Shown piece after piece: positions 2,487 through 14,326 of a DNA stretch of 14,326 nucleotides. Below the pieces are notes generated by a model. That model saw only the letters and a program-made list of their open reading frames with translations, was not told where the DNA came from and ran no database searches. Made by a program: the position numbers and the translations under genes. Source of the stretch: an uncultured archaeon (GTDB taxonomy: Archaea; Thermoplasmatota; Penumbrarchaeia; JASLWR01); assembly GCA_964342815.1 (NCBI GenBank), contig CAYFHS010000051.1, positions 1-14,326 on the forward strand, given 5' to 3'. Positions within the stretch are counted from its first letter, which is position 1; each line of letters opens with the position of its first letter.

Positions 2487-3065
2487 ATGGTGTCCAAAAT
2501 GATAGTGGTTCTGGAAGGTATTGATAACTCCGGCAAGACCTACCAGGCCAATGAACTGAAGAGAATACTGGAAAGGCAGGGAACTGAAGTAAATATCAAC
2601 AAGGAATTTTTTTCAAAGATCCGAGGGGTCATGACAAAGATGGTTAATGACGGACGAATACCATCGGTCGTACAAAAAATATTGGAGATAAAAGTTGTTG
2701 GTCATGAATCCAAAAACTGTAATTGGCCGCCAAGGGAGTTGATCATCATTGACCGATTCATCCACACGGTTCTTGCATATGCAAAGGTTAATGATTATTA
2801 TATGAACCTCTGTGAAACCCTGAAGAGATATCGGTTGTACGACCTTGCGATCTATGTGGATATTACAGCGGACGAGGCACTTGAAAGATCGAGAATCGCA
2901 AATGATAATATGGATTATTCCTGGGATTATCTAAATTCGGCCAGAATGAATTATTTAAAATTCGTAAAATCGGATGGGCTGAAACTTCTGGATGGAATGA
3001 GATCCAAAGAGGAAGTGACCGAGAGCCTAATTGCTCTTATTAAGGATCATTTCAACCACCATTAA
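2487..3065 (+). CDS. tmk: Thymidylate kinase family protein (dTMP kinase-like, divergent)
   Basis: P-loop VVLEGIDNSGKT, IIIDRF motif, AY motif and DLAIYVDI...EALER segment; 192 aa fits the TMK fold. Several substrate-site motifs deviate, so orthology to tmk is uncertain. Confidence 0.75.
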   Translation: MVSKMIVVLEGIDNSGKTYQANELKRILERQGTEVNINKEFFSKIRGVMTKMVNDGRIPSVVQKILEIKVVGHESKNCNWPPRELIIIDRFIHTVLAYAKVNDYYMNLCETLKRYRLYDLAIYVDITADEALERSRIANDNMDYSWDYLNSARMNYLKFVKSDGLKLLDGMRSKEEVTESLIALIKDHFNHH

Positions 3066-3125: not shown

Positions 3126-6100
3126 TTACGGATCAATATCCGGACCTTCACCGGTTTTCAGATCGATATTTTCCGAGGTATCAGGCCGATCATTCTTAAC
3201 AATCCTTTTACGAACGACAACTCGTTTTCTATTTTCAACCTTTTTTCGCATGGATTCACTTTCCGATGGGCCCGTTCCGGGTATGCCGCTCCCGGCCCTA
3301 TTTCTCTTCCTGTGGCGTTTCAAAATCATCAAAACAACAATTATCAGTAACAGAACCGATAGTACTATTACTGCCTGGATAACACTTCCCAAAGCTGCTT
3401 TTTCACCGACACCCTCTCCCTGCCCACCTGCTCTACCATTATCATCATCGGCATCGATATCATCGTCTTCATCGATTATGGGATCATCATCTTCATCATC
3501 TATCGGTTCGGGATCGCCATCCCCCGGACCATCGGGTAGATTCACATCCACAGGAATGTCCGGTTTTTCCGATTCTTCCACATCGTCATCCCCATCCGGC
3601 TCTCCCGTATCATTATCGTCATCATCTTCTTGCCCAACTGTGCCCTCTTCCTCTACATATTTCAAACCCCAATGAGTATTAGTGGGATTCACTTTGATAC
3701 GATGGGAATCCGACTGGACCGTGTCATCCGGCGAATACATGGGAAATACCAGAGCCGGAGGTGAGACGAACCTTCCAGGAAGCATGGGTACCACTTCATA
3801 CTCCATCTCCAGCTCATCGAGAGTGCTTATAAAGAAGGTCACATGGTCGTCGGAGATCTCAAACGAGAGGACATTGCCGTTACTGTTTTCCACAACGGTC
3901 TCGAGAGACGTTTCATCTACTTTAAAGCCTGGACAAATATAGTCTTCCACCGCCACAAATCTCAGGGTTTCATCGGACCATGCCTTGATCTTGACCGTTA
4001 TGGGGGAAAACAGTTCCACACTGGTATCGGAATAGCTCCTCTGAATGAAATAATCACTGGAGCTGACGGTTAGAGCAGACCCTTCAGCATATGTCAATAC
4101 ATTGTCATCAGCCATGAGAACCGCTGTTCCAAGGTCCCCCCGATAATCCTCCGGGCAGCTCACCTCGTAACTAAACTCCTGGTAATCCTTCGAAGTGTCC
4201 ACGGCGAATTCGACGAAGTTTTCCCCCGTAAGTTCCACATTCCCCTGTGAGAGTGAAGCGGGTAGGTGATCCCGGATCCGCACACTCCCCATTCCATCTC
4301 TCTGTTCCTCCGTTCCCTCGATTGATACCTTCAGTTTAATATTCATATCATTATTTGTCCGCATAGCGAACGCGTCAGCGCTCTTTTCAAGTTTGACCGA
4401 TATACCCGGACCACCCGACAATCCTCTCGTGTCAGTACCCCTTGTTGGCATATTTTGGACCTTCACCGTGACAGGTCCGTAGTATTTCGTTATAAGCCCG
4501 CTCTCCCTCTGACCCGCACTCAATTTATAATTTACTATTATAGGTGATATCTTCGCGGTCCCGGCCCCCGCACCGAGGAAATTAAAGCTGAATTTCCTTG
4601 ATGAATCCGAATCCGCCGGATGGTCCGATTGGGAGTTTAAATAGATCAAATTTCGCCCGGAGCTCACACGAACGTCCAGGTCAATGACCTTAACGTTCTT
4701 TGAGTTCACGGGATCCGCCGTTACTTCGAAACTTAAGGTATCTCCCCGGTACATGGATAGATTGGTATCGAAGTTCACAACCACGTCCTTCCTCAGGTAT
4801 TCCACCGTGGTAAGCTCATAGAACAGCTCGCCGGTTCCATCCTTGCTTATGCTGATATTGTTGGGTCCATCAGTATTGAGATATTCAGTTATATCCATTG
4901 CATCCATCTTATTGTAGAAATTTCGGTAAGTACGATCATTCACGTGTTCCCTGGCAATGCGTTTGCCGTTCACCGTGACCGTTATATCCATATCGATGGG
5001 TTGGGCGTTCCTCAAAACCTCCAGTACAGCGAACATGTATGCAACCGTTGCGGTGGTGGTGCCAAAATCACCGGTTGAAAGGCGCCGGGAGTTCAACCAC
5101 TCCAGCAGTTCCCTGATGAGAGCCGGATCGTCGTTTGCTTTTGCTGCAAGGTAGAGTACCCATGCAGTACATTCCGTTTGCCCTCCCAGGGCGTTGTCGC
5201 TTTCGAAATGCGAACCTATCTTCATATCGGTAAGGTCGGCCATTATCGGAGCAATCTGCTGTCCGCCCAATTCAGTATCACCGAGACCGTAGTGTGAGAG
5301 GCCGTACGGGGTAAGGTTGCCCTCCTGCATTATACGCTGCAGGGATTGCTCTGTGGGTTGCGGGGCGGGGATTCCGGATCTCGCCAGGGAAAAATAGAGA
5401 AAAGCCGTAAGAGCCACGTCGTCCATATCATCACCGGGACCCGGCATCCATGTACCGTCCTCACCTATTCTCATCATCAAAAAATCCTGGCAGTCCGCTA
5501 TGGACTGCGGGTCTACAAAAAAACCTGAATCCTTGGTGGTGGACAGCCCCAACAGCACCCACCCGCTCATCCAGAGACTGGAATCATCTCCCTTCCACCA
5601 ACCCCAGCCGCCATCCAGGTGCTGTTTTGCCAGAAGAGATTGAAGTTCGGTGTATATCTTGCGGGTGAGATATCGGTCTGTCCACCGTTCCAGATCCCCC
5701 GTTTCCTTAAGATATTCGCGGTACAGAACTGCGGGGATCATCCGGGAGGTTATCTGCTCGGTACAGTCGTACGGATATCCCGCAAGCATGGAGAAACCCA
5801 TCTTTAAGAGTCCCTGGTATCCAGGTGCCAGGCGAAGAACCGTTTTCTGTGTACCGTTGATCAATTCCTCGTGGAAATCAAAAATCTCTGTTACGGTTGG
5901 ATCAACAGCTCCCGTGGCATGGCTCACGAGAAGAGCCCCGTTGGGCTTTACGAAAACCTCTTTTCGTACTGCATCGGTACTGCCCTTGAAATCGCTGGCA
6001 ATGAATGTTAAATTATTTTTCATGGCACCGAATATTTTCATGCGGTAGAGATGTTCAGCAATGGAATTAGCAGGTATCTTCACCTTGATCTGAACCTCAC

Positions 6101-9100
6101 CGAAAACCTTTATCCAATCGTCTGCGGATACACCGAGTTCCGCTTCTATTTCGGTATCATGAAAGTTATACAGGAGAACCTTCATTTCTATTTCGTCGTC
6201 CTGGGTCATTTTATAAGGCAGTTTCGGCTCGATAAAGAAGACTTTACTTACGTTGAAAGTGGCAGTGTTCTCACCTCCCACCAATCCCTGGGTAAGCCCG
6301 GTTCCTCTTATTCTCCACTTGCCGATATTATCGGGTAGGGTTAGATCGATAATTGCTCTTCCGTCCTGCCCAGTTGTAATCCAGGGGAGCCAAAGAGCCG
6401 TATCGGTGAACCATTCCCGAACGTCGGTGTTGTCAAGCTCGGACTGAAGCGCATCGCCTAGCTCAGCATCCTTAGGTGCTTCTTCCCCCTCATATCCTCC
6501 ACCCTGGCCCTGGCCTGCTCCATTCTCTGCCATTCCATCGCCATCGGCGTCTCCAAGAGGATCCGGTTCGATCCCGTTAAGCTTAATATTCGGCCAGTAC
6601 GAAACAGTCTCTGACGGGAGCGATTCCGGGTACCATGTATCGCTGTCCCAATTCAGTATCGTACGGTAGCTCCATTCAAAGGCCCAAGGAGTGACGAGGT
6701 TATCATAAAATGTTTTCGCGGAAAAGTCCTGGAAAATCTCGAAAACCGCTGCATCGACTACGGAAATAGAGACCTGGACACCAGCAGCAGGAAATCCATC
6801 GCTCTCCAGAACGGTTACGGTCAACTTTGTACTCTCCCCGGGTTCATAGGCCGGTTTATCCATCTCGAGAATTAATTCCAAAGGACGTATTCCATAATTA
6901 ATAACGGCACTGGAGGTGATCAGACGCGCCATATCGTCTACCAGGAATACGGTCAAATCAATGTCATGATGCCAGTCCTTCGTCGTGAACGTAAACTGGG
7001 CCGCCCGCCCGTTAACATACCTGTTTTTTGTTATAACGTCCCATCCGGCCGAAACAGACAAATAGACGAAACCTGTGAACTCCTCCGATAAATCAAGCTG
7101 AACGTCGATAATATCTCCAGGGAAATATTCCAATTTCGAGGGGATTAGAGTAATCTCGAGCGGGGATTTATCCACCACTTCAACGGGATGATCTATGACG
7201 GTTTCGTGTTGACTGTTCTCGAAGCTAACCCTGATAATATACCTCCCGCTCTCAAGATGCTCCGGCAGACGCCACGTGACATTGATCAGCCCAACAGCTT
7301 TTCCGGATACGGCGAACACGGGTGAAGCGTCGTAGAATGAATAGTAATAGTTATCATAATAACCATAATATCTCTCCCGCTTGAATACGCTCAGCGTATA
7401 GTTGTAATCAGCATCTATAGTGGGGACCAATGATTCCGCTCCCAGTGTGATTGTGGCATTCGATCCGGGTGCGAAGGCTGCCGGGGCGTTTCTTACGGTA
7501 TAGATAACAGTGTGAACGAAGAACTCGTACTCCATGGACACTGGAGGTGTATTGTCGGAAGCCGTAGATACAGCAATCTTGAAGTAGTACCGTCCCTGGG
7601 CCGACAGGTTGAAAACGTCCACCCCCGCAGCCGCCAGATCGATTTGAGCAATTCCGTTCCGGTCAGTGGTCACATTGAATAACGTTTCCGCTCTTTCAGG
7701 CAGCCATCCTTCATTTTTCCCTATCATCCCGAATGACGTGACATTGATCATTAGGGTTGTGCTAATGTTAGCGATCCTTTGGACATCGATCTCATCCGTA
7801 CCTTTTTCAATTTCCCGGTAATTATATGTATTTAGGGTGAATTTTGGTTCATCCGTGGCCACAAAGGGTTCTTTCGACGGTACAATATCGATACCGGTCT
7901 TGAGGTCCGGGTCGGGAGCTTCTCCCACGTAATATGTCGTTGCGGCTTCGCATGAGTGATCATAATCATCAGAAAATACCGCCTCCAACTCGATCCGGTT
8001 AACTCCTTTGGGAATATCTAACGTGGTATTGGCCCAACCGTTCTCTACGGTTTCGTTTATCTCCAGTGTGATCAGAGGGGCCGGGTCGTTCCACCATCCA
8101 CCCCAATAATCGCCGTCACCTCCGCTATAAATTCCGTCCATATCTATTTCACCCCACCAGTACCAGGGATTGTATTCATACCGGTTCTCGTATCCCTGTA
8201 TCAGATAACTCACCTCACCCTGGTACACCGGCGCCCCGAACATGTATTCAACTTTAACCGGTATCTCCACCACGCCGGTCCTCAGTGAGATGTCTTCGTC
8301 GAAAACTATCCTCGTATCCGGGGTCTCGTAGTATCTAACACCCACATCTCTGCCCACTACATAGCTGCCGTCATGGTATACCGCAATTCGGTATGTGCCC
8401 CAGGGGGCGTCCTTTGATATGGGAAACTCGGTTTCGGCCGTACCAAATTCATCCAATACCAGATTCTCCCTTATAATATCCTTACCGTTACCATCATAGG
8501 AAAGTCGAACATCGATCGGCCCACCCAGCGGGATGGCATTATCCATATCATAGAGTGTGAATTGCGCTAAAATGGTATCCCCAGGCAGATAAACGGGTTT
8601 ATTCGTGTGAATATACCCCGAAAATTGCTCGGATCGGATCCACGCATAGGTTTCCACTTTTCCGGTCAGCGCCCCTTTGGATGCCGTTATCTCCAAACGA
8701 TAGTAATTGCCTGCAGGGGGCAAAAAGCTCAATGAAGCAAGTCCGTCCACCCCGGTTTTACCTGTAGTCATACGCCTCCGGGGAACGGAACGTCCCGACA
8801 TGTGTATTTCGATATTGGCATTTTCCACGGGAACTATCCCCGAGCCGTAAACCAGGACCGAGACATTTGCAGAATGACCTTTAACCAGTGTCGAGGGAGT
8901 ATTGATATAGAGTAAAAAATCCTTGACCTGAAAAGTTGTATGGCCGATCCAGTTATATGGGAAATTCTTAGCCCCAAGGGCCTCAACGATGGTTCTCGTT
9001 TTCGGTGAGAAAATCGCCACGGCTCTGAAATCGTGTTTGCCTTTTGCCAATTGTCCAAGGTCCACGGTCTTGTCGTAATCAGCAAACAATTCAGTACTTG

Positions 9101-10688
9101 AGTATCCGCCGTCCAGGTAAACCGCGAACTCCCAACTTGCCATTGAACCGGCTCCTTTGGTACCTGTTACGGAAACATTCGAACCGGTGTCGGTGAAATA
9201 GACATTCCCTGATTTGAAGGCATTCAGGTAAACGTCGCTCCCACAGTTGAAATAGTGAAGTCGGTTGTAATTAGAAGAAAGTTTGTATCCGTTCCATGTG
9301 TAGATCGGGAAGGTTCCTTGCGGGTGATGGGGCTGTTGTGGGTGGAAATTTGCAGCGGCGATATACCTGCCAGGAAGCTCGAATTCGTAATTAGTTGAGG
9401 CAAGTCCTTTGAGGGTCAACGACCGGTCGAACATTGTATAGGCCGTTGCTCCGCTTCCGGGGACGTACACGTAATAGAAAAGTGAAAGCCACACGTCGGT
9501 ATCGTATGGATCGGCATGCTCGGGATGTGCTACAGCGATCCCTCTCAGGCCGCCGTTGGCATACCAAAGAGAAAAATCAGATTCGTTCATTGTAGTGGTG
9601 ATGGAATATTTATGGAGTTCGATGGATACGTTATCGTAAACGTCAGGTTCAGGATTATCCAGCTGGACCCAGCTGACAGTCGGATTCATCACGTAGGTAT
9701 ATGCACGGGAGTATGGGAATTTCACGGAATACGAGAAATCCCAGGGTATAGGTACGTCATATGCGGTAACTGCAAGATTGTATCGGCCGATCTGTTCGAG
9801 GGTTATATTGTAATACAAGCCTTCGAGAGGTATATTTACCGACGTCTTATTCAGAAGGGAACTTTTGAAAAGATGAAGGTATGCGGTCCCATTCGCAGGA
9901 GTATACAGGGAATCCAGCACGGGTGATGGAGTATGGTAACCTGTGAAGCGGGAGAGAAATTCATATGTATTGTCAGAAGGCGAATAAGCAAAACGTTGAA
10001 TGTAATAATGGGCTCTGTGACCGGGCAGAAGCGTAGGATAGATGCTCTTGACCGTTGTAAATAATTCAGGATATGCGGAACCTTTTACGTAACCAATCTT
10101 CATCTCACGGGAAAGTCGGGCTATCTCGTTTGTCCTTGCATGGACGCCGAGAGTGACCTTGGAAGCATTCACACCGAGTATGAAGTAATATTTGGCGGGC
10201 TCATCAGCTATGTGTGTATAGGTATAGGTTCCGTTAATAATCGTGATTTCCTTTTTCAGTGATCGATCCAGAGTATAATAAGATCGGGTGGCATAAACGA
10301 ATAACGTTGCATCAAGGGTTTCGGGTATTACATTTGTACCATCCGGCAGGACCCGGGAGACGGTAAAGGAAACATTGAACTCCTCAAGGGCTTTTATCAC
10401 GGGAATTTCCAGTTTTCCCTGAATATCCCATGTTTCCCATATTTCTTCAGTATTCAACATGCCGCCTTTGGGAGTGGGATCGTCAGCATCGGGAATCCCG
10501 TCCGCATCTGTGTCGGGATTGTTTGGGTCGGTCCCAATAGCTTCCTCATAACGGTCGGAAAGCCCGTCAAAATCCGAATCCGGCTCCTCGGCTTCTGCAT
10601 TTGAGCCGGTTAATCCCAAAGCGGAAAGCAGCATCAGCGCAACCACTGAAATCGATATAATTCTTAGGTATGTCTCTCTAGATACCAT
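3126..10688 (-). CDS. Alpha-2-macroglobulin family thioester protein, secreted and C-terminally membrane-anchored
   Basis: Signal peptide (IISISVVALMLLSALGLTGSNAEA|), DxDxDG repeats, MG2 YIHTNKPVYLPGD, DKPAYEPGE...VVDAAV, bait region, VREWFTDTALW...LPDNIGKWRI, FFIEPKLPY, thioester YPYDCTEQ (5754-5777), TED QHLDGGWGWW, C-terminal MG domain with PMY, acidic linker, TM helix at 3321-3398. Start set at ATG10688 (SD-like AGGGGCGA); the ORF track starts at 10721. Confidence 0.95.
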   Translation of the reverse strand: MVSRETYLRIISISVVALMLLSALGLTGSNAEAEEPDSDFDGLSDRYEEAIGTDPNNPDTDADGIPDADDPTPKGGMLNTEEIWETWDIQGKLEIPVIKALEEFNVSFTVSRVLPDGTNVIPETLDATLFVYATRSYYTLDRSLKKEITIINGTYTYTHIADEPAKYYFILGVNASKVTLGVHARTNEIARLSREMKIGYVKGSAYPELFTTVKSIYPTLLPGHRAHYYIQRFAYSPSDNTYEFLSRFTGYHTPSPVLDSLYTPANGTAYLHLFKSSLLNKTSVNIPLEGLYYNITLEQIGRYNLAVTAYDVPIPWDFSYSVKFPYSRAYTYVMNPTVSWVQLDNPEPDVYDNVSIELHKYSITTTMNESDFSLWYANGGLRGIAVAHPEHADPYDTDVWLSLFYYVYVPGSGATAYTMFDRSLTLKGLASTNYEFELPGRYIAAANFHPQQPHHPQGTFPIYTWNGYKLSSNYNRLHYFNCGSDVYLNAFKSGNVYFTDTGSNVSVTGTKGAGSMASWEFAVYLDGGYSSTELFADYDKTVDLGQLAKGKHDFRAVAIFSPKTRTIVEALGAKNFPYNWIGHTTFQVKDFLLYINTPSTLVKGHSANVSVLVYGSGIVPVENANIEIHMSGRSVPRRRMTTGKTGVDGLASLSFLPPAGNYYRLEITASKGALTGKVETYAWIRSEQFSGYIHTNKPVYLPGDTILAQFTLYDMDNAIPLGGPIDVRLSYDGNGKDIIRENLVLDEFGTAETEFPISKDAPWGTYRIAVYHDGSYVVGRDVGVRYYETPDTRIVFDEDISLRTGVVEIPVKVEYMFGAPVYQGEVSYLIQGYENRYEYNPWYWWGEIDMDGIYSGGDGDYWGGWWNDPAPLITLEINETVENGWANTTLDIPKGVNRIELEAVFSDDYDHSCEAATTYYVGEAPDPDLKTGIDIVPSKEPFVATDEPKFTLNTYNYREIEKGTDEIDVQRIANISTTLMINVTSFGMIGKNEGWLPERAETLFNVTTDRNGIAQIDLAAAGVDVFNLSAQGRYYFKIAVSTASDNTPPVSMEYEFFVHTVIYTVRNAPAAFAPGSNATITLGAESLVPTIDADYNYTLSVFKRERYYGYYDNYYYSFYDASPVFAVSGKAVGLINVTWRLPEHLESGRYIIRVSFENSQHETVIDHPVEVVDKSPLEITLIPSKLEYFPGDIIDVQLDLSEEFTGFVYLSVSAGWDVITKNRYVNGRAAQFTFTTKDWHHDIDLTVFLVDDMARLITSSAVINYGIRPLELILEMDKPAYEPGESTKLTVTVLESDGFPAAGVQVSISVVDAAVFEIFQDFSAKTFYDNLVTPWAFEWSYRTILNWDSDTWYPESLPSETVSYWPNIKLNGIEPDPLGDADGDGMAENGAGQGQGGGYEGEEAPKDAELGDALQSELDNTDVREWFTDTALWLPWITTGQDGRAIIDLTLPDNIGKWRIRGTGLTQGLVGGENTATFNVSKVFFIEPKLPYKMTQDDEIEMKVLLYNFHDTEIEAELGVSADDWIKVFGEVQIKVKIPANSIAEHLYRMKIFGAMKNNLTFIASDFKGSTDAVRKEVFVKPNGALLVSHATGAVDPTVTEIFDFHEELINGTQKTVLRLAPGYQGLLKMGFSMLAGYPYDCTEQITSRMIPAVLYREYLKETGDLERWTDRYLTRKIYTELQSLLAKQHLDGGWGWWKGDDSSLWMSGWVLLGLSTTKDSGFFVDPQSIADCQDFLMMRIGEDGTWMPGPGDDMDDVALTAFLYFSLARSGIPAPQPTEQSLQRIMQEGNLTPYGLSHYGLGDTELGGQQIAPIMADLTDMKIGSHFESDNALGGQTECTAWVLYLAAKANDDPALIRELLEWLNSRRLSTGDFGTTTATVAYMFAVLEVLRNAQPIDMDITVTVNGKRIAREHVNDRTYRNFYNKMDAMDITEYLNTDGPNNISISKDGTGELFYELTTVEYLRKDVVVNFDTNLSMYRGDTLSFEVTADPVNSKNVKVIDLDVRVSSGRNLIYLNSQSDHPADSDSSRKFSFNFLGAGAGTAKISPIIVNYKLSAGQRESGLITKYYGPVTVKVQNMPTRGTDTRGLSGGPGISVKLEKSADAFAMRTNNDMNIKLKVSIEGTEEQRDGMGSVRIRDHLPASLSQGNVELTGENFVEFAVDTSKDYQEFSYEVSCPEDYRGDLGTAVLMADDNVLTYAEGSALTVSSSDYFIQRSYSDTSVELFSPITVKIKAWSDETLRFVAVEDYICPGFKVDETSLETVVENSNGNVLSFEISDDHVTFFISTLDELEMEYEVVPMLPGRFVSPPALVFPMYSPDDTVQSDSHRIKVNPTNTHWGLKYVEEEGTVGQEDDDDNDTGEPDGDDDVEESEKPDIPVDVNLPDGPGDGDPEPIDDEDDDPIIDEDDDIDADDDNGRAGGQGEGVGEKAALGSVIQAVIVLSVLLLIIVVLMILKRHRKRNRAGSGIPGTGPSESESMRKKVENRKRVVVRKRIVKNDRPDTSENIDLKTGEGPDIDP
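10460..10590 (-). repeat. Thrombospondin type-3-like Ca2+-binding repeats at the mature N-terminus of the A2M
   Basis: DSDFDGLSDRYEEAIGTDPNNPDTDADGIPDADD contains two DxDxDG units linked by the typical GTDPxxPD segment. Confidence 0.8.
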
Positions 10689-10745
10689 TATATTCGCCCC
10701 TGATATGTGTGATTTAATCAATACAACAACGTTAAACTGCCGTGG

Positions 10746-10848: not shown

Positions 10849-11433
10849 TCAAATAATACCGGTATAACCCAGTTTCGCCAAAGCCTCCCAAACTTTCGAT
10901 AGAGGAAGTCCCATTACGTTGAAATAACACCCTTCGATCCTTTCTACCAGCAGACCGCCTTTGCCCTGAATGGCGTAGGCCCCCGCTTTGTTTTTATACT
11001 CTCCCGAATCCAGATAGAAATTTATCTCCGCGTCCGAATAGGGACGCATGAAGACATTGGTGACCGCGGTATCATTTTGAACTAAACCCTTGTAATGAAC
11101 TGAAAAACCTGTAATTACCTTATGGCATCTTCCACTAAGAGCCGAAAGAATCCCGAAAGCGTCCAGGCGGTCAACTGGTTTTTTTAATGTAGTTCCGTCC
11201 AGATCCCCAAGAGTGTCGGCCGCCAGGAGCGGGCGATCCCCAATCTCGTCAGCGTGGTTTTCCAACACGTGGGCCGCTTTCAAGCGAGCAAGATGCAGAA
11301 CCATTTCTTCGGGTGACGACATTTCGGTATTATTCTCATCGATACCCGGAACCAGTATCTTTACGTCAAAACCGGCATTCTTCAGAACCTCGTATCTCGC
11401 CGGGGAGCCGGAGGCGAGCACTATTTTCCCCAT
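10849..11433 (-). CDS. maf: Maf-family nucleoside triphosphate pyrophosphatase (YhdE-like, dTTP/UTP)
   Basis: IVLASGSPAR, LAADT (catalytic Asp followed by Thr), TLKKP, LSGRCHKVITG, YKNKAGAYAIQG, GCYFNVMGLP; SD GAGGTGA at 11438-11444. Confidence 0.95.
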   Translation of the reverse strand: MGKIVLASGSPARYEVLKNAGFDVKILVPGIDENNTEMSSPEEMVLHLARLKAAHVLENHADEIGDRPLLAADTLGDLDGTTLKKPVDRLDAFGILSALSGRCHKVITGFSVHYKGLVQNDTAVTNVFMRPYSDAEINFYLDSGEYKNKAGAYAIQGKGGLLVERIEGCYFNVMGLPLSKVWEALAKLGYTGII

Positions 11434-11437
11434 CCTT

Positions 11438-11444
11438 TCACCTC
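11438..11444 (-). promoter_or_regulatory. Shine-Dalgarno site of maf
   Basis: GAGGTGA 4 nt upstream of ATG11433, within the 23-bp gap after the PPP stop codon. Confidence 0.75.
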
Positions 11445-11456
11445 GTTCTCAAAGAG

Positions 11457-12641
11457 CTATTGCCCGGGATCCCCCTCCATGGTTTCCACAGGGTCAAGCG
11501 ATATCTCTTCGATGCTGAACTCCCCATCATGATCGAGAACCGCAATGGCCCCTGCATTGCCCTGCCCGCGATAGTCCGGGGCGGAGAAAATCCGTAATAG
11601 TCTACCATCAAAGTAATATTCAAATCCCTTGGATACTGCCTTGTGCGCCACGACCATCCTTTTCAATCCGTTATTTTTAATAAAAATATCAAAGACCTTT
11701 CTGCCGAACAGCCGGGCCCTGTCACCCCGGGGGGACGGCTCGAATCCCACATTCTCGTCCACAGGATCGTTCCACAGTATCTCGAAGAGAATATCGTCCT
11801 CGCTGAGCTCGGTGTTGGCTTCCAGCGAATTTATCTCGCGTATGTCCTCGAGCAGGCGGGGTATCCCGCCGTGCAGTGCGAGAGTCTCGCCGCCATGGAG
11901 AACGGCCAGGGGCAGCAGGGCGAATATCTCGTTGTACCAGTTGAATACCTTTTCATGATGCTGCTCCAGAAATTTCTCCTTTATCTCATCCAAAAATCCA
12001 TAATGAAAGTTTATTGGAAGCGTCTCGTTATTACCCCTGAGGAGAATGATCCTTTCGGGATCGGCCAATTTCTCCAGAAAAAGGCGGTTGACGACCTTTA
12101 GCGAGTCTTTCCCCGCATCGACGTAATCCCCGAGGAATACCAGATGTCGTATATCGGAACCATAGCTTCGATAGCGGTCCAGTATCCACACCAAAGCATC
12201 GTAATCCCCGTGAATATCCCCTGCGAAGATTGTGGCGCTCCCGCCAACTTCCACCAGGTTGCCTTCTCTCTCCAGAATGTCGGATACACCAATTAGAAGC
12301 TGCATGGTGAGAAAGGAATCGAACTTGTCGATAAAAGTTGGATTGGAAATGAAATCGTTGATGACAGCGGGTGTGAAGAAGGGTTTTCCCGGTACGAAGG
12401 TTTCCTCCACCTCGATATGTTCCCGGGCTTTCAGGGCTTCGGCCCGGGCTTTCGGGTCTTCTTCGGTCATGTAATTTATTGGATAGCTTTTTTCCGTGTC
12501 CTCGGGTAGTAATAAAGGAGGTTTCTTCTTTTTCATAACGTTATCTTCATCTGCCGGATCGGCCTTTTCCTCGGTGTTTTTTTCTTTTTCCGACGTCATT
12601 TCCATCGCTCTCGGGGATCTTGGTATATGGGAGATATTCAA
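11457..12641 (-). CDS. PPP-family (PP1/PP2A-like) Ser/Thr phosphatase homologue with substituted catalytic residues
   Basis: GDIHG, FLGDYVDAG, LRGNNE, LHGGI, ILWNDP, SPRG, AH and FSAPDY occur in canonical order and spacing. Start is uncertain (TTG12641, ATG12605 or ATG12599). Confidence 0.9.
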   Translation of the reverse strand: MNISHIPRSPRAMEMTSEKEKNTEEKADPADEDNVMKKKKPPLLLPEDTEKSYPINYMTEEDPKARAEALKAREHIEVEETFVPGKPFFTPAVINDFISNPTFIDKFDSFLTMQLLIGVSDILEREGNLVEVGGSATIFAGDIHGDYDALVWILDRYRSYGSDIRHLVFLGDYVDAGKDSLKVVNRLFLEKLADPERIILLRGNNETLPINFHYGFLDEIKEKFLEQHHEKVFNWYNEIFALLPLAVLHGGETLALHGGIPRLLEDIREINSLEANTELSEDDILFEILWNDPVDENVGFEPSPRGDRARLFGRKVFDIFIKNNGLKRMVVAHKAVSKGFEYYFDGRLLRIFSAPDYRGQGNAGAIAVLDHDGEFSIEEISLDPVETMEGDPGQ

Positions 12642-12769
12642 TTAGAAATCTGATTCCCGTAATGCTGAAGCTGCAATATATTATTTCTCTCCTTTTCCGT
12701 GGAGGAAGCCTGTAAACGTTTGTAGCGACCTGGATTAAGAAAAAAACGAAGCGGCATCCAGAAATAACA

Positions 12770-12825: not shown

Positions 12826-12897
12826 GGAGAGGTGACAGAGCGGCTATGTGCGCGACTGCAGATCGTGTCTATGGGAGTTCGAATCTCCCCCTCTCCA
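12826..12897 (+). tRNA. tRNA-Cys (anticodon GCA), intron-less, CCA not encoded
   Basis: Acceptor GGAGAGG/CCTCTCC; D-arm ACAG-AGCGGCT-ATGT; anticodon stem CGCGA/TCGTG with loop CT-GCA-GA (anticodon 12858-12860); T-arm GGGAG-TTCGAAT-CTCCC; followed by a T-rich tract. Confidence 0.95.
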
Positions 12898-13012
12898 CTC
12901 TTTATTTGGGGTTATATATAGAACTCAGATTTTACCATAAAAGCTCTGATTTATTCCTGAAACCATCAAAATATCGGTGAATACCTGGGAATATGATCTA
13001 TATTTTCTTAAA

Positions 13013-13130
13013 AAGACCCTTGATCCTTGCTCTTTCCAAGGATTTCTAGCACCCCTCAGACCCGTATTAAGCACTCTCAAGGATATTCAGCACCCTCAAG
13101 ACCCTTGCACCTCAAGCACCTAGAACCCTT
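13013..13130. repeat. Degenerate 16-21-bp tandem repeat array with a 7-7-7 inverted repeat
   Basis: Units gatccttgctctttccaag / gatttctagcacccctcaga / cccgtattaagcactctcaag / gatattcagcaccctcaag / acccttgcacctcaag share a GCAC-n-CTCAAG core. AAGACCCTTG occurs twice (13013, 13098). ATCCTTG-7nt-CAAGGAT spans 13023-13043. Confidence 0.6.
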
Positions 13131-13189
13131 CTTGGACTTCTCAAACCCCTATACTCTTTCGTTTGTTCAAGTATTGCACACACATGAGT

Positions 13190-14326
13190 TTAGGATTTTG
13201 TCCCTTGCATCTCTAAAAAATTTATCAATTCTGACTTTTTATTATTATAGGATTCAACTTGGAATTTCCAATGCTTCATCATTATCAGGTAAAAATCTTT
13301 TTCTTCTCGTATTAAGGAACCTTGTATCATAAATGCGTCTAATACTTTATTAGCCTCACCTATGGAATTTGTATATTCATCTACAAGATTATGAAAATCT
13401 TTTAAAAGAGGATCAAATATTTTCTGAACATTTCCCACCTTTTTTTCATCGCTTACATATTTAGAAATTTCATTCTTTATTAAATCCATTTGATCAATGA
13501 CTAATTTTGCTTTATTAGTAATACTGATGTCAATTTCTTTTAAGTGACTAATTGTAGTATTACCAATATAATCATGTAAAAACCTATTTTTTATCTCTTC
13601 ATTATTCAAGTAACCTAGCATTATTTCCAATTCTAAATTACTCAACCAATCCTCTCTATTAGCTTCCGATACTTTTAATAAAACCAACTCAAATATAATA
13701 AATATTATAAATATTTTTAATGAAAAAACAACTAAATTATTATGCTTAATTATGTTTGAAATTATTCCAACGTTATAAACGGCGGAAATTAGAATAATAA
13801 TATATAATAGTAGAAGAAAAAATAAAACAAATTTCTGGAAAAAGAAAGCCTTTTTTGACGTAAACTGAAATGCAGGAATTTCATATTTTTGAAGGTTTTC
13901 TTTTTTAAATACCTTTTTCAATTTGATTCGGAATCTAATGTAAAGAATTGATTGCAACAAGATAAATATTCCTATAAGCAAATAAGGGATAGGGGAATAT
14001 CCAAATTTTCTAATATAAAAAGCAGTAAAAAAATTAAGGATTGACATTAATACAAAATTTATATGGACCAAAATTTCAACAACTTTTTGTTCTTTTTCAC
14101 CAAGTTTACTTTTCAACCTTCTTGTAAACGGAAAGATTAAAATTATCATTAGAAGTGCAAATATCAATAATAATAATAAGAATACATTTAGGATGTTCGT
14201 TATTATTGTTATTGTTAATTTATAGTTCAAATATATTTGTTCGATTTTATTCGGATTTTTTATCATGTCTATAAATAGATAAAAAATTATTGCGATCAAT
14301 CCATATATTGTTATTCCCGAAATCTG
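13190..14326 (-). CDS. AT-rich polytopic membrane protein with a helical C-terminal domain (5'-truncated by the window edge)
   Basis: The frame has no stop through position 14326 (QISGITIYG precedes the TTG at 14299). About six hydrophobic segments are followed by ~120 aa of charged helical sequence. No family recognised. Confidence 0.75.
   Translation of the reverse strand, partial: QISGITIYGLIAIIFYLFIDMIKNPNKIEQIYLNYKLTITIITNILNVFLLLLLIFALLMIILIFPFTRRLKSKLGEKEQKVVEILVHINFVLMSILNFFTAFYIRKFGYSPIPYLLIGIFILLQSILYIRFRIKLKKVFKKENLQKYEIPAFQFTSKKAFFFQKFVLFFLLLLYIIILISAVYNVGIISNIIKHNNLVVFSLKIFIIFIIFELVLLKVSEANREDWLSNLELEIMLGYLNNEEIKNRFLHDYIGNTTISHLKEIDISITNKAKLVIDQMDLIKNEISKYVSDEKKVGNVQKIFDPLLKDFHNLVDEYTNSIGEANKVLDAFMIQGSLIREEKDFYLIMMKHWKFQVESYNNKKSELINFLEMQGTKS

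What the first reader, a model, noticed from the sequence alone, without database searches (positions are those of the whole stretch)
11457..12170. Candidate natural PPP pseudophosphatase: intact metal site, catalytic Arg->Ala and His->Asn
Seen: GDYVDRG reads GDYVDAG (GCG at 12114-12116) and GNHE reads GNNE (AAC at 12027-12029); the RAH(E/Q) motif reads VAHK. All six metal ligands (DxH, D, N, H of HGG, H of AH), the second phosphate-binding Arg (SPRG) and SAPxY remain. Established: these positions are PP1 Arg96 and His125 (PP2A Arg89/His118; lambda phosphatase Arg53/His76), a phosphate-binding Arg and the general acid, and substituting them is a standard way to inactivate PPP enzymes. Inference: a phosphoprotein-binding 'reader' or substrate trap, or an enzyme with switched chemistry such as a phosphodiesterase. 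PPP pseudoenzymes are, to my knowledge, undescribed in archaea.
Basis: partly seen in the sequence, partly recalled or inferred. Interest (0 to 1): 0.8.

Follow-up and report, generated by a model that had tools for sequence, protein, structure and literature searches.

The report
Archaeal PP1-like phosphatase with dismantled active site
A marine archaeon's only PP1/PP2A-type protein phosphatase gene has lost two residues needed for catalysis, and its orthologues have lost still more while staying under strong selection, so it is probably a "dead" phosphatase kept for binding rather than hydrolysis, a kind not found described for archaea in the papers searched.

Summary
The gene (window 11457-12599, minus strand) encodes a true PP1/PP2A-fold protein reading GDYVDAG, GNNE and VAHK. 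All six metal ligands, Asp95, Arg221 and Tyr272 (PP1 numbering) are intact. Contigs from an independent marine sample carry both odd codons, and three orthologues (66-80% identity) share them.

In 255 other PPP homologues, Arg96 is kept in 251 and His125 in 254. The protein belongs to a narrow 13-member Thermoplasmatota clade:
- Two members are canonical.
- One has only His->Asn.
- Four, including the window, have Ala and Asn.
- Three have lost Asp92, Arg96 and Arg221.
- Three have also lost three to six metal ligands.

dN/dS is 0.11-0.13 even in the metal-less group. The only superfamily-conserved columns released in the clade are eight active-site or substrate-contact residues. His->Asn arose at least twice.

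No canonical PPP, PP2C, SpoIIE or DSP was found in this genome (89% complete), although it has about 21 Hanks-type kinases.

Best reading: a pseudophosphatase (about 0.6). Rival: an enzyme with residual or altered chemistry (about 0.3). Activity was not tested. PPP pseudophosphatases are known in eukaryotes (PfPPP8, kinetoplastid PPPs). I found none described for archaea. The scan did not note this protein before.

The parts
11457..12599 (-). PPP-like gene (380 aa from ATG 12599; alternative ATG at 12605; the ORF is open up to TTG 12641; stop TAG at 11459-11457)
   Evidence: ORF. Pfam Metallophos E 6e-23. PDB sequence hits BSU1/PP1/PP2A at E 1e-44 to 1e-36. Database copy P0002 is 380 aa. AF2 model pLDDT 83.8, and Foldseek matches PP1/PP2A with target-normalised TM about 0.9.
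12441..12599 (-). Charged, low-complexity N-terminal tail (residues 1-53), predicted disordered
   Evidence: pLDDT below 50 over residues 1-47. Poorly conserved within the clade.
12339..12440 (-). Clade-specific conserved N-terminal segment (residues 54-87, R..I.VE.T..PGKPFFTP.V..F...P), absent from other PPPs
   Evidence: Invariant or nearly invariant in all 13 clade members. The same columns are gaps in most of the 255 other homologues.
11484..12338 (-). PP1/PP2A-type catalytic-fold domain (residues 88-372)
12204..12221 (-). Motif I GDIHGD, intact (metal ligands equivalent to PP1 Asp64 and His66)
12111..12131 (-). Motif II GDYVDAG. Asp92 and Asp95 are kept; Arg96 is replaced by Ala (GCG 12116-12114)
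   Evidence: Independent contig with no differences.
12024..12035 (-). Motif III GNNE. Asn124 is kept; the general-acid His125 is replaced by Asn (AAC 12029-12027)
   Evidence: Independent contig with no differences.
11871..11873 (-). His of HGG (PP1 His173), metal ligand, intact
11727..11729 (-). Arg of SPRG (PP1 Arg221), the second arginine of the phosphate clamp, intact here but lost in sister subclades
11640..11651 (-). VAHK. The metal-ligand His248 is kept; Arg246 of the RAH motif is replaced by Val, as in every clade member
   Evidence: Arg246 is R in 253 of 255 other homologues and V/S/T/I in all 13 clade members.
11571..11585 (-). SAPDY motif (PP1 Tyr272), intact
11434..11456 (-). 23-nt spacer between the PPP-like stop and the Maf start, with a GGTGA Shine-Dalgarno-like run. 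Probably one transcript.
   Evidence: Sequence. The two genes abut or overlap in orthologous loci.
10849..11433 (-). Maf-family nucleotide pyrophosphatase gene, the conserved downstream neighbour
   Evidence: Pfam Maf E 1.9e-51. PDB Maf/YhdE/YceF E 1e-30. Directly downstream in 10 of the 11 degenerate members; P0005's truncated downstream ORF was not identified.

Best explanation
The gene encodes a pseudophosphatase. It is a folded PP1/PP2A-type protein whose hydrolytic machinery has been disabled, and which selection keeps for a function that does not need phosphate-ester turnover.

Shown:
- It is a true PPP homologue.
- Two residues are replaced: the first arginine of the two-arginine phosphate clamp (Arg96) and the general-acid histidine (His125).
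- It is one stage in a graded series of orthologues running from canonical to metal-ligand-free.
- All stages are under purifying selection.
- The constraint released in the clade is confined to active-site and substrate-contact residues.

Inferred:
- The window's copy keeps all six metal ligands, Asp95, Tyr134, Asp208, Arg221 and Tyr272. It therefore probably still holds two metal ions and can still dock a phosphate-bearing ligand. Without leaving-group protonation and with half the clamp, it would bind far better than it cleaves, acting as a phospho-ligand binder or trap.
- The more eroded sister orthologues sit in the same operon context. Whatever function the clade shares therefore rests on other conserved surfaces: the clade-specific N-terminal segment, NRLFLEKL, WYNEIF and the R294/R296 pair. 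The partner is unknown.
For: - Homology and fold.
- Rarity of the changes: Arg96 is kept in 251 of 255 and His125 in 254 of 255 other PPP homologues.
- Roles of the residues: the His125-Asp95 dyad protonates the leaving group, and Arg96/Arg221 contact the phosphate (PMC7599070; PMC8249667). The same His->Asn change in lambda phosphatase (H76N) is used as a catalytically inactive control (10.1101/2023.06.12.544643).
- Graded erosion among 13 orthologues: P0012 and P0015 are canonical; P0013 has H125N only; the window plus 3 have R96A and H125N; P0006-8 have D92N, R96H/Y and R221L; P0009-11 have H66L, D92N, R96T/A/V, N124K and R221S, plus D64G, H173Q or H248R/Q in some.
- Purifying selection: omega is 0.11 for window vs P0003 (dS 1.1) and 0.13 for P0009 vs P0011, the pair lacking metal ligands (dS 0.81). 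The neighbouring Maf enzyme gene gives 0.15-0.17.
- Released columns: only eight columns are at least 90% conserved in the other PPPs but variable in the clade. They are D92, R96, H125, Y134, D208, R221, R246 and Y272. Thirty-two other conserved columns are retained and 48 columns are clade-specific.
- H125N arose at least twice: the AU test rejects a single clade of Asn-bearers, p 0.0018.
- The dead-site orthologue P0009 is predicted with the same fold, pLDDT 82.3.
Against: - No activity measurement exists.
- In the window's four-member subclade all six metal ligands, Asp95, Arg221, Tyr134, Asp208 and Tyr272 are invariant across dS above 1. The metal/phosphate pocket is therefore itself under selection, which also fits residual or altered catalysis.
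- The genome has about 21 Hanks-type kinases, and no canonical PPP, PP2C, SpoIIE or DSP was found. This leaves the gene as the only recognisable Ser/Thr-phosphatase-family candidate.
- Clade-specific arginines (R294, R296) next to the Arg221 loop could in principle replace Arg96.
- Convergent His->Asn, rather than random replacement, hints that Asn itself is useful.
- The AF2 fold of the dead orthologue leans on an alignment of active PPPs.
- No binding partner is identified.
Confidence: 0.6

Rival explanations
1. It is still an enzyme. One form of this reading is a weak protein phosphatase that serves the cell's many Ser/Thr kinases. The other is a metallophosphoesterase with changed chemistry, acting on substrates with good leaving groups (phosphodiesters, nucleotide polyphosphates, pyrophosphate). 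Such substrates need no general acid and no Arg96. The Maf nucleotide pyrophosphatase encoded just downstream may be functionally linked.
For: - All six metal ligands plus Asp95, Arg221, Tyr134, Asp208 and Tyr272 are invariant in the window's subclade across dS 1.1.
- It is the only PPP-family gene in a genome with about 21 Pkinase hits, and no PP2C, SpoIIE or DSP was found. The same-genus genome G001 likewise shows 18 kinase hits and only the degenerate PPP.
- The Maf operon is conserved.
- His->Asn arose twice.
- Loss of the motif II arginine moves the site back towards the ancestral diesterase-type metallophosphoesterases described by Kerk et al. (PMC8249667).
- Recalled, not checked here: E. 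coli YfcE and Methanocaldococcus MJ0936 are active diesterases with GNCD in place of GNHD.
Against: - Orthologues in the same operon have lost three to six metal ligands yet are equally constrained. The shared function therefore cannot need the dinuclear centre.
- The lambda phosphatase H76N mutant is treated as inactive.
- Arg96 and His125 are 98-100% conserved in 255 homologues, including archaeal ones.
- The Maf linkage predates the erosion. The H125N-only member P0013 is also directly followed by Maf, and the canonical P0012 has Maf one gene further on. The linkage therefore says nothing specific about a new chemistry.
- NCBIfam ApaH and PrpE models score far below their cut-offs.
Confidence: 0.3
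2. It is an artefact or a decaying gene. The odd codons would then be assembly errors, or the copy would be a pseudogene drifting after loss of function.
For: GCG versus CGG is an adjacent-base swap, and the window comes from a metagenome-assembled genome (116 contigs).
Against: - Independent-sample contigs are identical over both codons.
- The same protein is seen on 8 contigs.
- Three orthologues at 66-80% identity share Ala and Asn, with synonymous differences around them.
- The 380-codon frame is intact, and omega is 0.11.
Confidence: 0.02
3. It is a non-catalytic partner or regulator of the co-transcribed Maf pyrophosphatase. This is a specific version of the pseudoenzyme reading: the dead phosphatase fold binds Maf, or its nucleotide substrate or product.
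For: Maf lies directly downstream, abutting or overlapping, in 10 of the 11 degenerate members (P0005's truncated downstream ORF was not identified), and one gene away in canonical P0012. No such pairing is seen at PPP loci of more distant relatives.
Against: No fused PPP-Maf protein was found. The linkage is older than the erosion, and G002 has the two genes unlinked. Operon membership alone does not show a physical or functional interaction.
Confidence: 0.12

Closest known systems
PfPPP8 of Plasmodium falciparum and its apicomplexan homologues (PPP-type pseudophosphatase; Morano et al. 2023, PMC10317984)
   Same: Both have a PPP-family domain with a degenerate motif II (GNLINRG in PfPPP8) and are conserved in a lineage. 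PfPPP8 was proposed to bind rather than hydrolyse. Subclades B and C of the archaeal clade also carry GN in motif II.
   Different: PfPPP8 is a large eukaryotic basal-complex protein that keeps the motif II Arg and loses the Asp metal ligands. The window protein keeps the metal ligands and loses Arg96 and His125. It is archaeal and single-domain, and it lies in an operon with Maf. PfPPP8 inactivity was measured; this protein is untested.
Kinetoplastid-specific PPPs and the degenerate calcineurin A2 (TriTryp phosphatome, PMC2175518; earlier scan note e1-653965)
   Same: Both are PPP paralogues with substitutions at catalytic residues, predicted from sequence to be pseudophosphatases.
   Different: The kinetoplastid proteins are eukaryotic and coexist with many active PPP paralogues. 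In this genome no canonical paralogue was found.
Archaeal 'eukaryotic-like' PPPs (Kerk et al. 2021, PMC8249667), such as the canonical archaeal hits P0017-P0057 here
   Same: They share the fold, about 35-42% identity, all six motifs in register, and the SAPxY C-terminal motif.
   Different: Those proteins keep Arg96, His125, Arg221 and Arg246. The Kerk survey selected sequences for having all the motifs. They are about 260-290 aa and lack the conserved N-terminal extension of this clade.
Engineered inactive PPPs, for example lambda phosphatase H76N
   Same: It carries the identical His->Asn substitution at the general-acid position, and is used as a catalytically dead control.
   Different: It is a laboratory point mutant of a bacterial-type PPP. 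The window protein is a natural double substitution fixed and conserved in a lineage.
Metallophosphoesterase-fold proteins with non-catalytic roles (Vps29; B subunits of eukaryotic DNA polymerases). Recalled from general knowledge, not checked here.
   Same: The calcineurin-like fold is reused as a scaffold after loss of catalytic residues.
   Different: These belong to other branches of the superfamily, not the PPP family, and they are eukaryotic.

Membership tests
PPP (PP1/PP2A-type phosphoprotein phosphatase) family, by homology and fold | Calcineurin-like metallophosphoesterase domain with best similarity to PP1/PP2A/BSU1 | tested here: met
   Pfam PF00149 E 6e-23. PDB phmmer E 1e-44 to 1e-36 against BSU1, PP2A and PP1.
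PPP (PP1/PP2A-type phosphoprotein phosphatase) family, by homology and fold | PP1/PP2A catalytic-subunit three-dimensional fold | tested here: met
   AF2 model pLDDT 83.8. Foldseek E 1e-28, TM (by target) 0.85-0.92, against PP2Ac, Glc7 and PP1.
Catalytically competent PPP enzyme | Motif I GDxHG with Asp and His metal ligands | tested here: met
   GDIHGD.
Catalytically competent PPP enzyme | Motif II GDxVDRG with Arg96, the first arginine of the two-arginine clamp | tested here: not met
   GDYVDAG. Arg is present in 251 of 255 other homologues.
Catalytically competent PPP enzyme | Motif III GNHE with the general-acid His125 | tested here: not met
   GNNE. His is present in 254 of 255 other homologues.
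Catalytically competent PPP enzyme | Remaining metal ligands (Asn124, His173, His248), Arg221 and Tyr272 | tested here: met
   All are present. However, Arg246 of the RAH motif is Val.
Catalytically competent PPP enzyme | Measured phosphomonoesterase activity | not testable with these tools
   Needs recombinant protein.
Pseudophosphatase (pseudoenzyme of a phosphatase family) | Clear homologue of active phosphatases lacking residues essential for catalysis | tested here: met
Pseudophosphatase (pseudoenzyme of a phosphatase family) | Maintained by purifying selection, not a pseudogene | tested here: met
   Omega 0.11 and 0.13. The frame is intact in all 13 members.
Pseudophosphatase (pseudoenzyme of a phosphatase family) | Loss of constraint specific to the active site across orthologues | tested here: met
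   Eight released columns, all catalytic or substrate-contact residues.
Pseudophosphatase (pseudoenzyme of a phosphatase family) | Demonstrated lack of catalytic activity, and a non-catalytic function | not testable with these tools
ApaH / PrpE / bacterial-type PPP (nucleotide polyphosphatases) | Score above the NCBIfam equivalog cut-offs | tested here: not met
   Best score is 23 bits against a cut-off of 176.
Known anti-phage defence components | Match to a PADLOC model | tested here: not met
   No hit for the PPP-like protein or for Maf.

The most novel reading that the evidence does not exclude
A kinase-rich lineage of marine Thermoplasmatota (about 20 Hanks-type kinases per genome) has no conventional Ser/Thr phosphatase at all. 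Its single PPP has been turned, step by step, into a phosphate-binding reader or scaffold. This would be the first prokaryotic PPP pseudophosphatase. Living orthologues preserve every stage of the conversion, from active enzyme to metal-free shell.
Probability: 0.3. Interest if true: 0.75.

Novelty: new variant of a known kind. Interest (0 to 1): 0.6.

Why it matters
Pseudoenzymes of the PPP family were recognised experimentally only in 2023 and only in eukaryotic parasites. This archaeal clade would extend them to prokaryotes.

The clade is also an unusually clean natural series. Within one orthologous gene, all under selection, it runs from canonical, to one residue lost, to the clamp and general acid lost, to the metal site lost. 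Such a series lets one ask three things:
- in what order an active site is dismantled;
- what replaces the metals (for example the Asn124->Lys change);
- which surfaces carry the surviving function.

A second puzzle can also be tested. These genomes encode about twenty eukaryotic-type kinases, but none of the Ser/Thr-phosphatase families searched was found. Either this crippled PPP still works by an unorthodox mechanism, or phosphorylation in these archaea is reversed by something unknown.

Tried and rejected
- Assembly error: rejected.
- Pseudogene decay: rejected.
- Canonical PPP paralogue in the same genome: not found with the protein itself, with PF00149, or with a PPP profile on all PF00149 loci. 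The genome is 88.9% complete, so absence is not proven.
- PP2C, PP2C_2, SpoIIE, DSPc and Tc-R-P families: no hits in the own genome. Two LMWPc hits exist.
- Fused or longer forms of the clade protein: none.
- More clade members: a profile search of 5.8 billion proteins and an exhaustive HMM search of 1.84 billion representatives added none beyond the 13.
- Defence-system models: none.
- RNA evidence: no RNA holder listed among the public runs, so expression is untested.
- DNA for P0004-7, P0010 and P0013 could not be fetched because the sample files were too large. dN/dS therefore rests on two informative pairs; most deeper pairs are saturated at synonymous sites.
- Relationships among the three degenerate subclades are unresolved. 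It is therefore unclear whether Arg96 was lost once or several times.
- The earlier-findings index holds no note on this protein.

Full report
**What is in the sequence.** The minus-strand ORF 11457-12641 encodes a 380-394-aa protein. All homologues start at the Met encoded at 12599, and the public copy P0002 (100% identical) is 380 aa. The DNA reads GAT-GCG-GGG (GCG at 12116-12114) in motif II and AAT-AAC-GAG (AAC at 12029-12027) in motif III. The motifs therefore read GDYVDAG and GNNE, and the RAH motif reads VAH(K).

**It is a true PPP.** Pfam gives Metallophos at E 6e-23. The best solved relatives by sequence are BSU1, PP2A, PP1, calcineurin and PP5 catalytic domains, at E 1e-44 to 1e-33. 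NCBIfam ApaH, PrpA/B and PrpE models score far below their cut-offs. An AlphaFold2 model (pLDDT 83.8, disordered only over residues 1-67) matches PP2Ac, Glc7 and PP1 with target-normalised TM of 0.85-0.92.

**The changes are far outside normal variation.** I aligned 268 homologues to one profile. In the 255 proteins outside the window's clade, each of the six metal ligands is kept in at least 253. Arg96 is kept in 251, His125 in 254 and Arg246 in 253. The window protein keeps Asp64, His66, Asp92, Asp95, Asn124, His173, Arg221, His248 and Tyr272, and it also keeps Tyr134 and Asp208. It has Ala for Arg96, Asn for His125 and Val for Arg246. The roles of these residues are established:
- The His125-Asp95 dyad protonates the leaving group, and Arg96/Arg221 hold the phosphate (PMC7599070; the "2-arginine clamp" of PMC8249667).
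- The same His->Asn change in lambda phosphatase (H76N) is used as a catalytically dead control.

**It is not an artefact.** Contigs of a marine metagenome from another study cover 11741-12037 and 12098-12330 without a single difference. The protein is seen on 8 contigs. The orthologue P0003 (80% identical) keeps GCG and AAC while neighbouring codons differ synonymously.

**The clade.** Two searches found the same 13 clusters and nothing else close: a search of 5.8 billion proteins, first with the single sequence and then with a profile, and an exhaustive HMM search of 1.84 billion representatives. The next hits drop from at least 515 to at most 288 bits. All 13 share a conserved N-terminal extension (R..I.VE.T..PGKPFFTP) and Val/Ser/Thr/Ile in place of Arg246. 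Their catalytic columns form a graded series:
- P0012 and P0015 are otherwise canonical.
- P0013 has only H125N.
- The window, P0003, P0004 and P0005 have R96A plus H125N.
- P0006-8 have D92N, R96H/Y and R221L (P0006 also D95N and H248N).
- P0009-11 have H66L, D92N, R96T/A/V, N124K and R221S, and some add D64G, H173Q or H248R/Q.

A maximum-likelihood tree supports the clade (100/98). It pairs P0012 with P0013 (93/91 and 86/92 in two runs) and recovers the three degenerate groups, but their mutual order is unresolved. An AU test rejects putting all Asn125 proteins in one clade (p 0.0018; the group was named after the tree was seen). His->Asn therefore arose at least twice.

**Selection.** The Nei-Gojobori omega is 0.11 for window versus P0003 (dS 1.1; 0.09 on the folded part alone). 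It is 0.13 for P0009 versus P0011, both of which lack several metal ligands (dS 0.81). The adjacent Maf gene gives 0.15-0.17. The dead-looking proteins are thus as constrained as a neighbouring enzyme.

Across the clade, exactly eight columns are at least 90% conserved in other PPPs but variable here. They are D92, R96, H125, Y134, D208, R221, R246 and Y272, all metal, phosphate or substrate contacts. Thirty-two other conserved columns are retained and 48 columns are conserved only in the clade. This is the expected signature of a pseudoenzyme. P0009 is still predicted as the same fold (pLDDT 82.3), although that prediction leans on an alignment of active PPPs.

**Context.** The window is a whole 14.3-kb contig of a 4.35-Mb, 88.9%-complete genome. 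NCBI labels one orthologue as Candidatus Thermoplasmatota, and the holders are marine and seawater metagenomes.

Downstream of the gene lies a Maf gene, after a 23-nt spacer with a GGTGA run, followed by a 2531-aa alpha-2-macroglobulin-like gene. Maf follows directly, abutting or overlapping, in 10 of the 11 degenerate members; for P0005 the truncated downstream ORF was not identified. In the canonical P0012 genome one hydrolase-like gene is inserted between the two, and in the P0015 genome they are unlinked. The Maf linkage is therefore older than the erosion, and it is not evidence for a new chemistry.

**Genome inventory.** With the protein itself, PF00149 and a PPP profile, no other PPP was found in the genome. 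The same-genus genome G001 (93% complete) also shows only its degenerate copy. G003, by contrast, carries a fully canonical paralogue. Yet G000 has 21 Pkinase hits over cut-off, many in giant ORFs, two FHA hits and two LMWPc hits. It has no PP2C, SpoIIE, DSPc or Tc-R-P hit. G001 has 18 kinase matches, counted like G000's 22. This is unexplained, and it is the main argument for the rival reading.

**Weighing.** The orthologue series, with equal constraint on members that cannot bind metals, argues that the function shared by the clade is non-catalytic. The window's subclade keeps the full metal site and the second clamp arginine under selection. I therefore infer that it still binds metals and a phosphate-bearing ligand but turns it over poorly, if at all, acting as a binder or trap (confidence about 0.6). 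The rival is that it remains an enzyme, either a feeble protein phosphatase or an esterase for substrates with good leaving groups. This rival is kept at about 0.3 because of the retained pocket, the missing phosphatase in a kinase-rich genome, and the convergent choice of Asn. Artefact or decay is excluded.

**Relation to the known.** PfPPP8 was published in 2023 as the first PPP-type pseudophosphatase (GNLINRG; PMC10317984). Kinetoplastid PPPs and a degenerate calcineurin were predicted to be dead in 2007 (PMC2175518; earlier scan note e1-653965). The survey of archaeal eukaryotic-like PPPs selected sequences that keep all motifs (PMC8249667). Two full-text searches found no archaeal or bacterial PPP pseudophosphatase. 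I therefore class this as a new variant of a known kind. It is prokaryotic, it has a different pattern of loss (clamp and general acid first, metals later), it has no active paralogue, and a complete natural erosion series is preserved.

Noticed in passing
whole genome G000 (for example C20:61985-67852, C5:59000-59743): There are 21 Hanks-type kinase domains over the Pfam cut-off, many inside ORFs of 1500-2750 aa, plus 2 FHA and 2 LMWPc hits. No PP2C, SpoIIE, DSPc or canonical PPP was found (88.9% complete). Same-genus G001 has 18 kinase hits, G003 has 24 and G002 only 3.
   Followed up: partly
L024:792-1910, L031, L032, L033 (genus g13 of the same class): This is a second, independent group of PPP-like proteins (343-373 aa) with a degenerate site. 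They read GNYIDL(C/S)PP, that is D92N and R96L, with R221I and Y272F, and SHAAFP in place of HGG. Canonical PPP paralogues are present in three of the four genomes (L019, L021, L022).
   Followed up: partly
window 10849-11433 (-): The Maf protein reads SGSPAR where B. subtilis Maf and E. coli YhdE have SxSPRR. Orthologues read SGSRAR or SGSKAR, so the first Arg of the motif is replaced throughout this lineage.
   Followed up: no
window 3126-10721 (-): A 2531-aa alpha-2-macroglobulin-like protein with a CTEQ thioester motif. Orthologous loci keep it downstream of PPP-Maf, with Pfam MG2, A2M, TED_complement and bMG10. Thymidylate kinase and an AsnC-type regulator lie beyond it, as in the window (2487-3065 and 1785-2432).
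   Followed up: partly
window 13001-14326: GC falls to 0.29, against about 0.47 elsewhere, just beyond tRNA-Cys (12826-12898, +). The 369-aa ORF 13190-14299 (-) there is very hydrophobic and Ile/Lys/Asn-rich and has no Pfam match. It is possibly an integrated foreign element.
   Followed up: partly
L014:2509-3972 and L015:3-1322: In the two genomes with canonical orthologues, the gene is followed by a conserved secreted or membrane alpha/beta-hydrolase-like protein (GHSTGG motif) instead of Maf.
   Followed up: no
window 12339-12440 (-), residues 54-87: The N-terminal segment (EVEETF.PGKPFFTP.V..F) is invariant in all 13 clade members, including the canonical ones, and absent from other PPPs. 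Its role is unknown; it may be a docking or self-binding peptide.
   Followed up: no
window 12620-12690 (-): Two A/T-rich TATA-like boxes lie upstream of the start. CATATA lies about 20-25 nt before the ATG at 12605, which would fit a leaderless archaeal mRNA, and AAATAATATATT lies about 75 nt upstream. Neither was tested.
   Followed up: no
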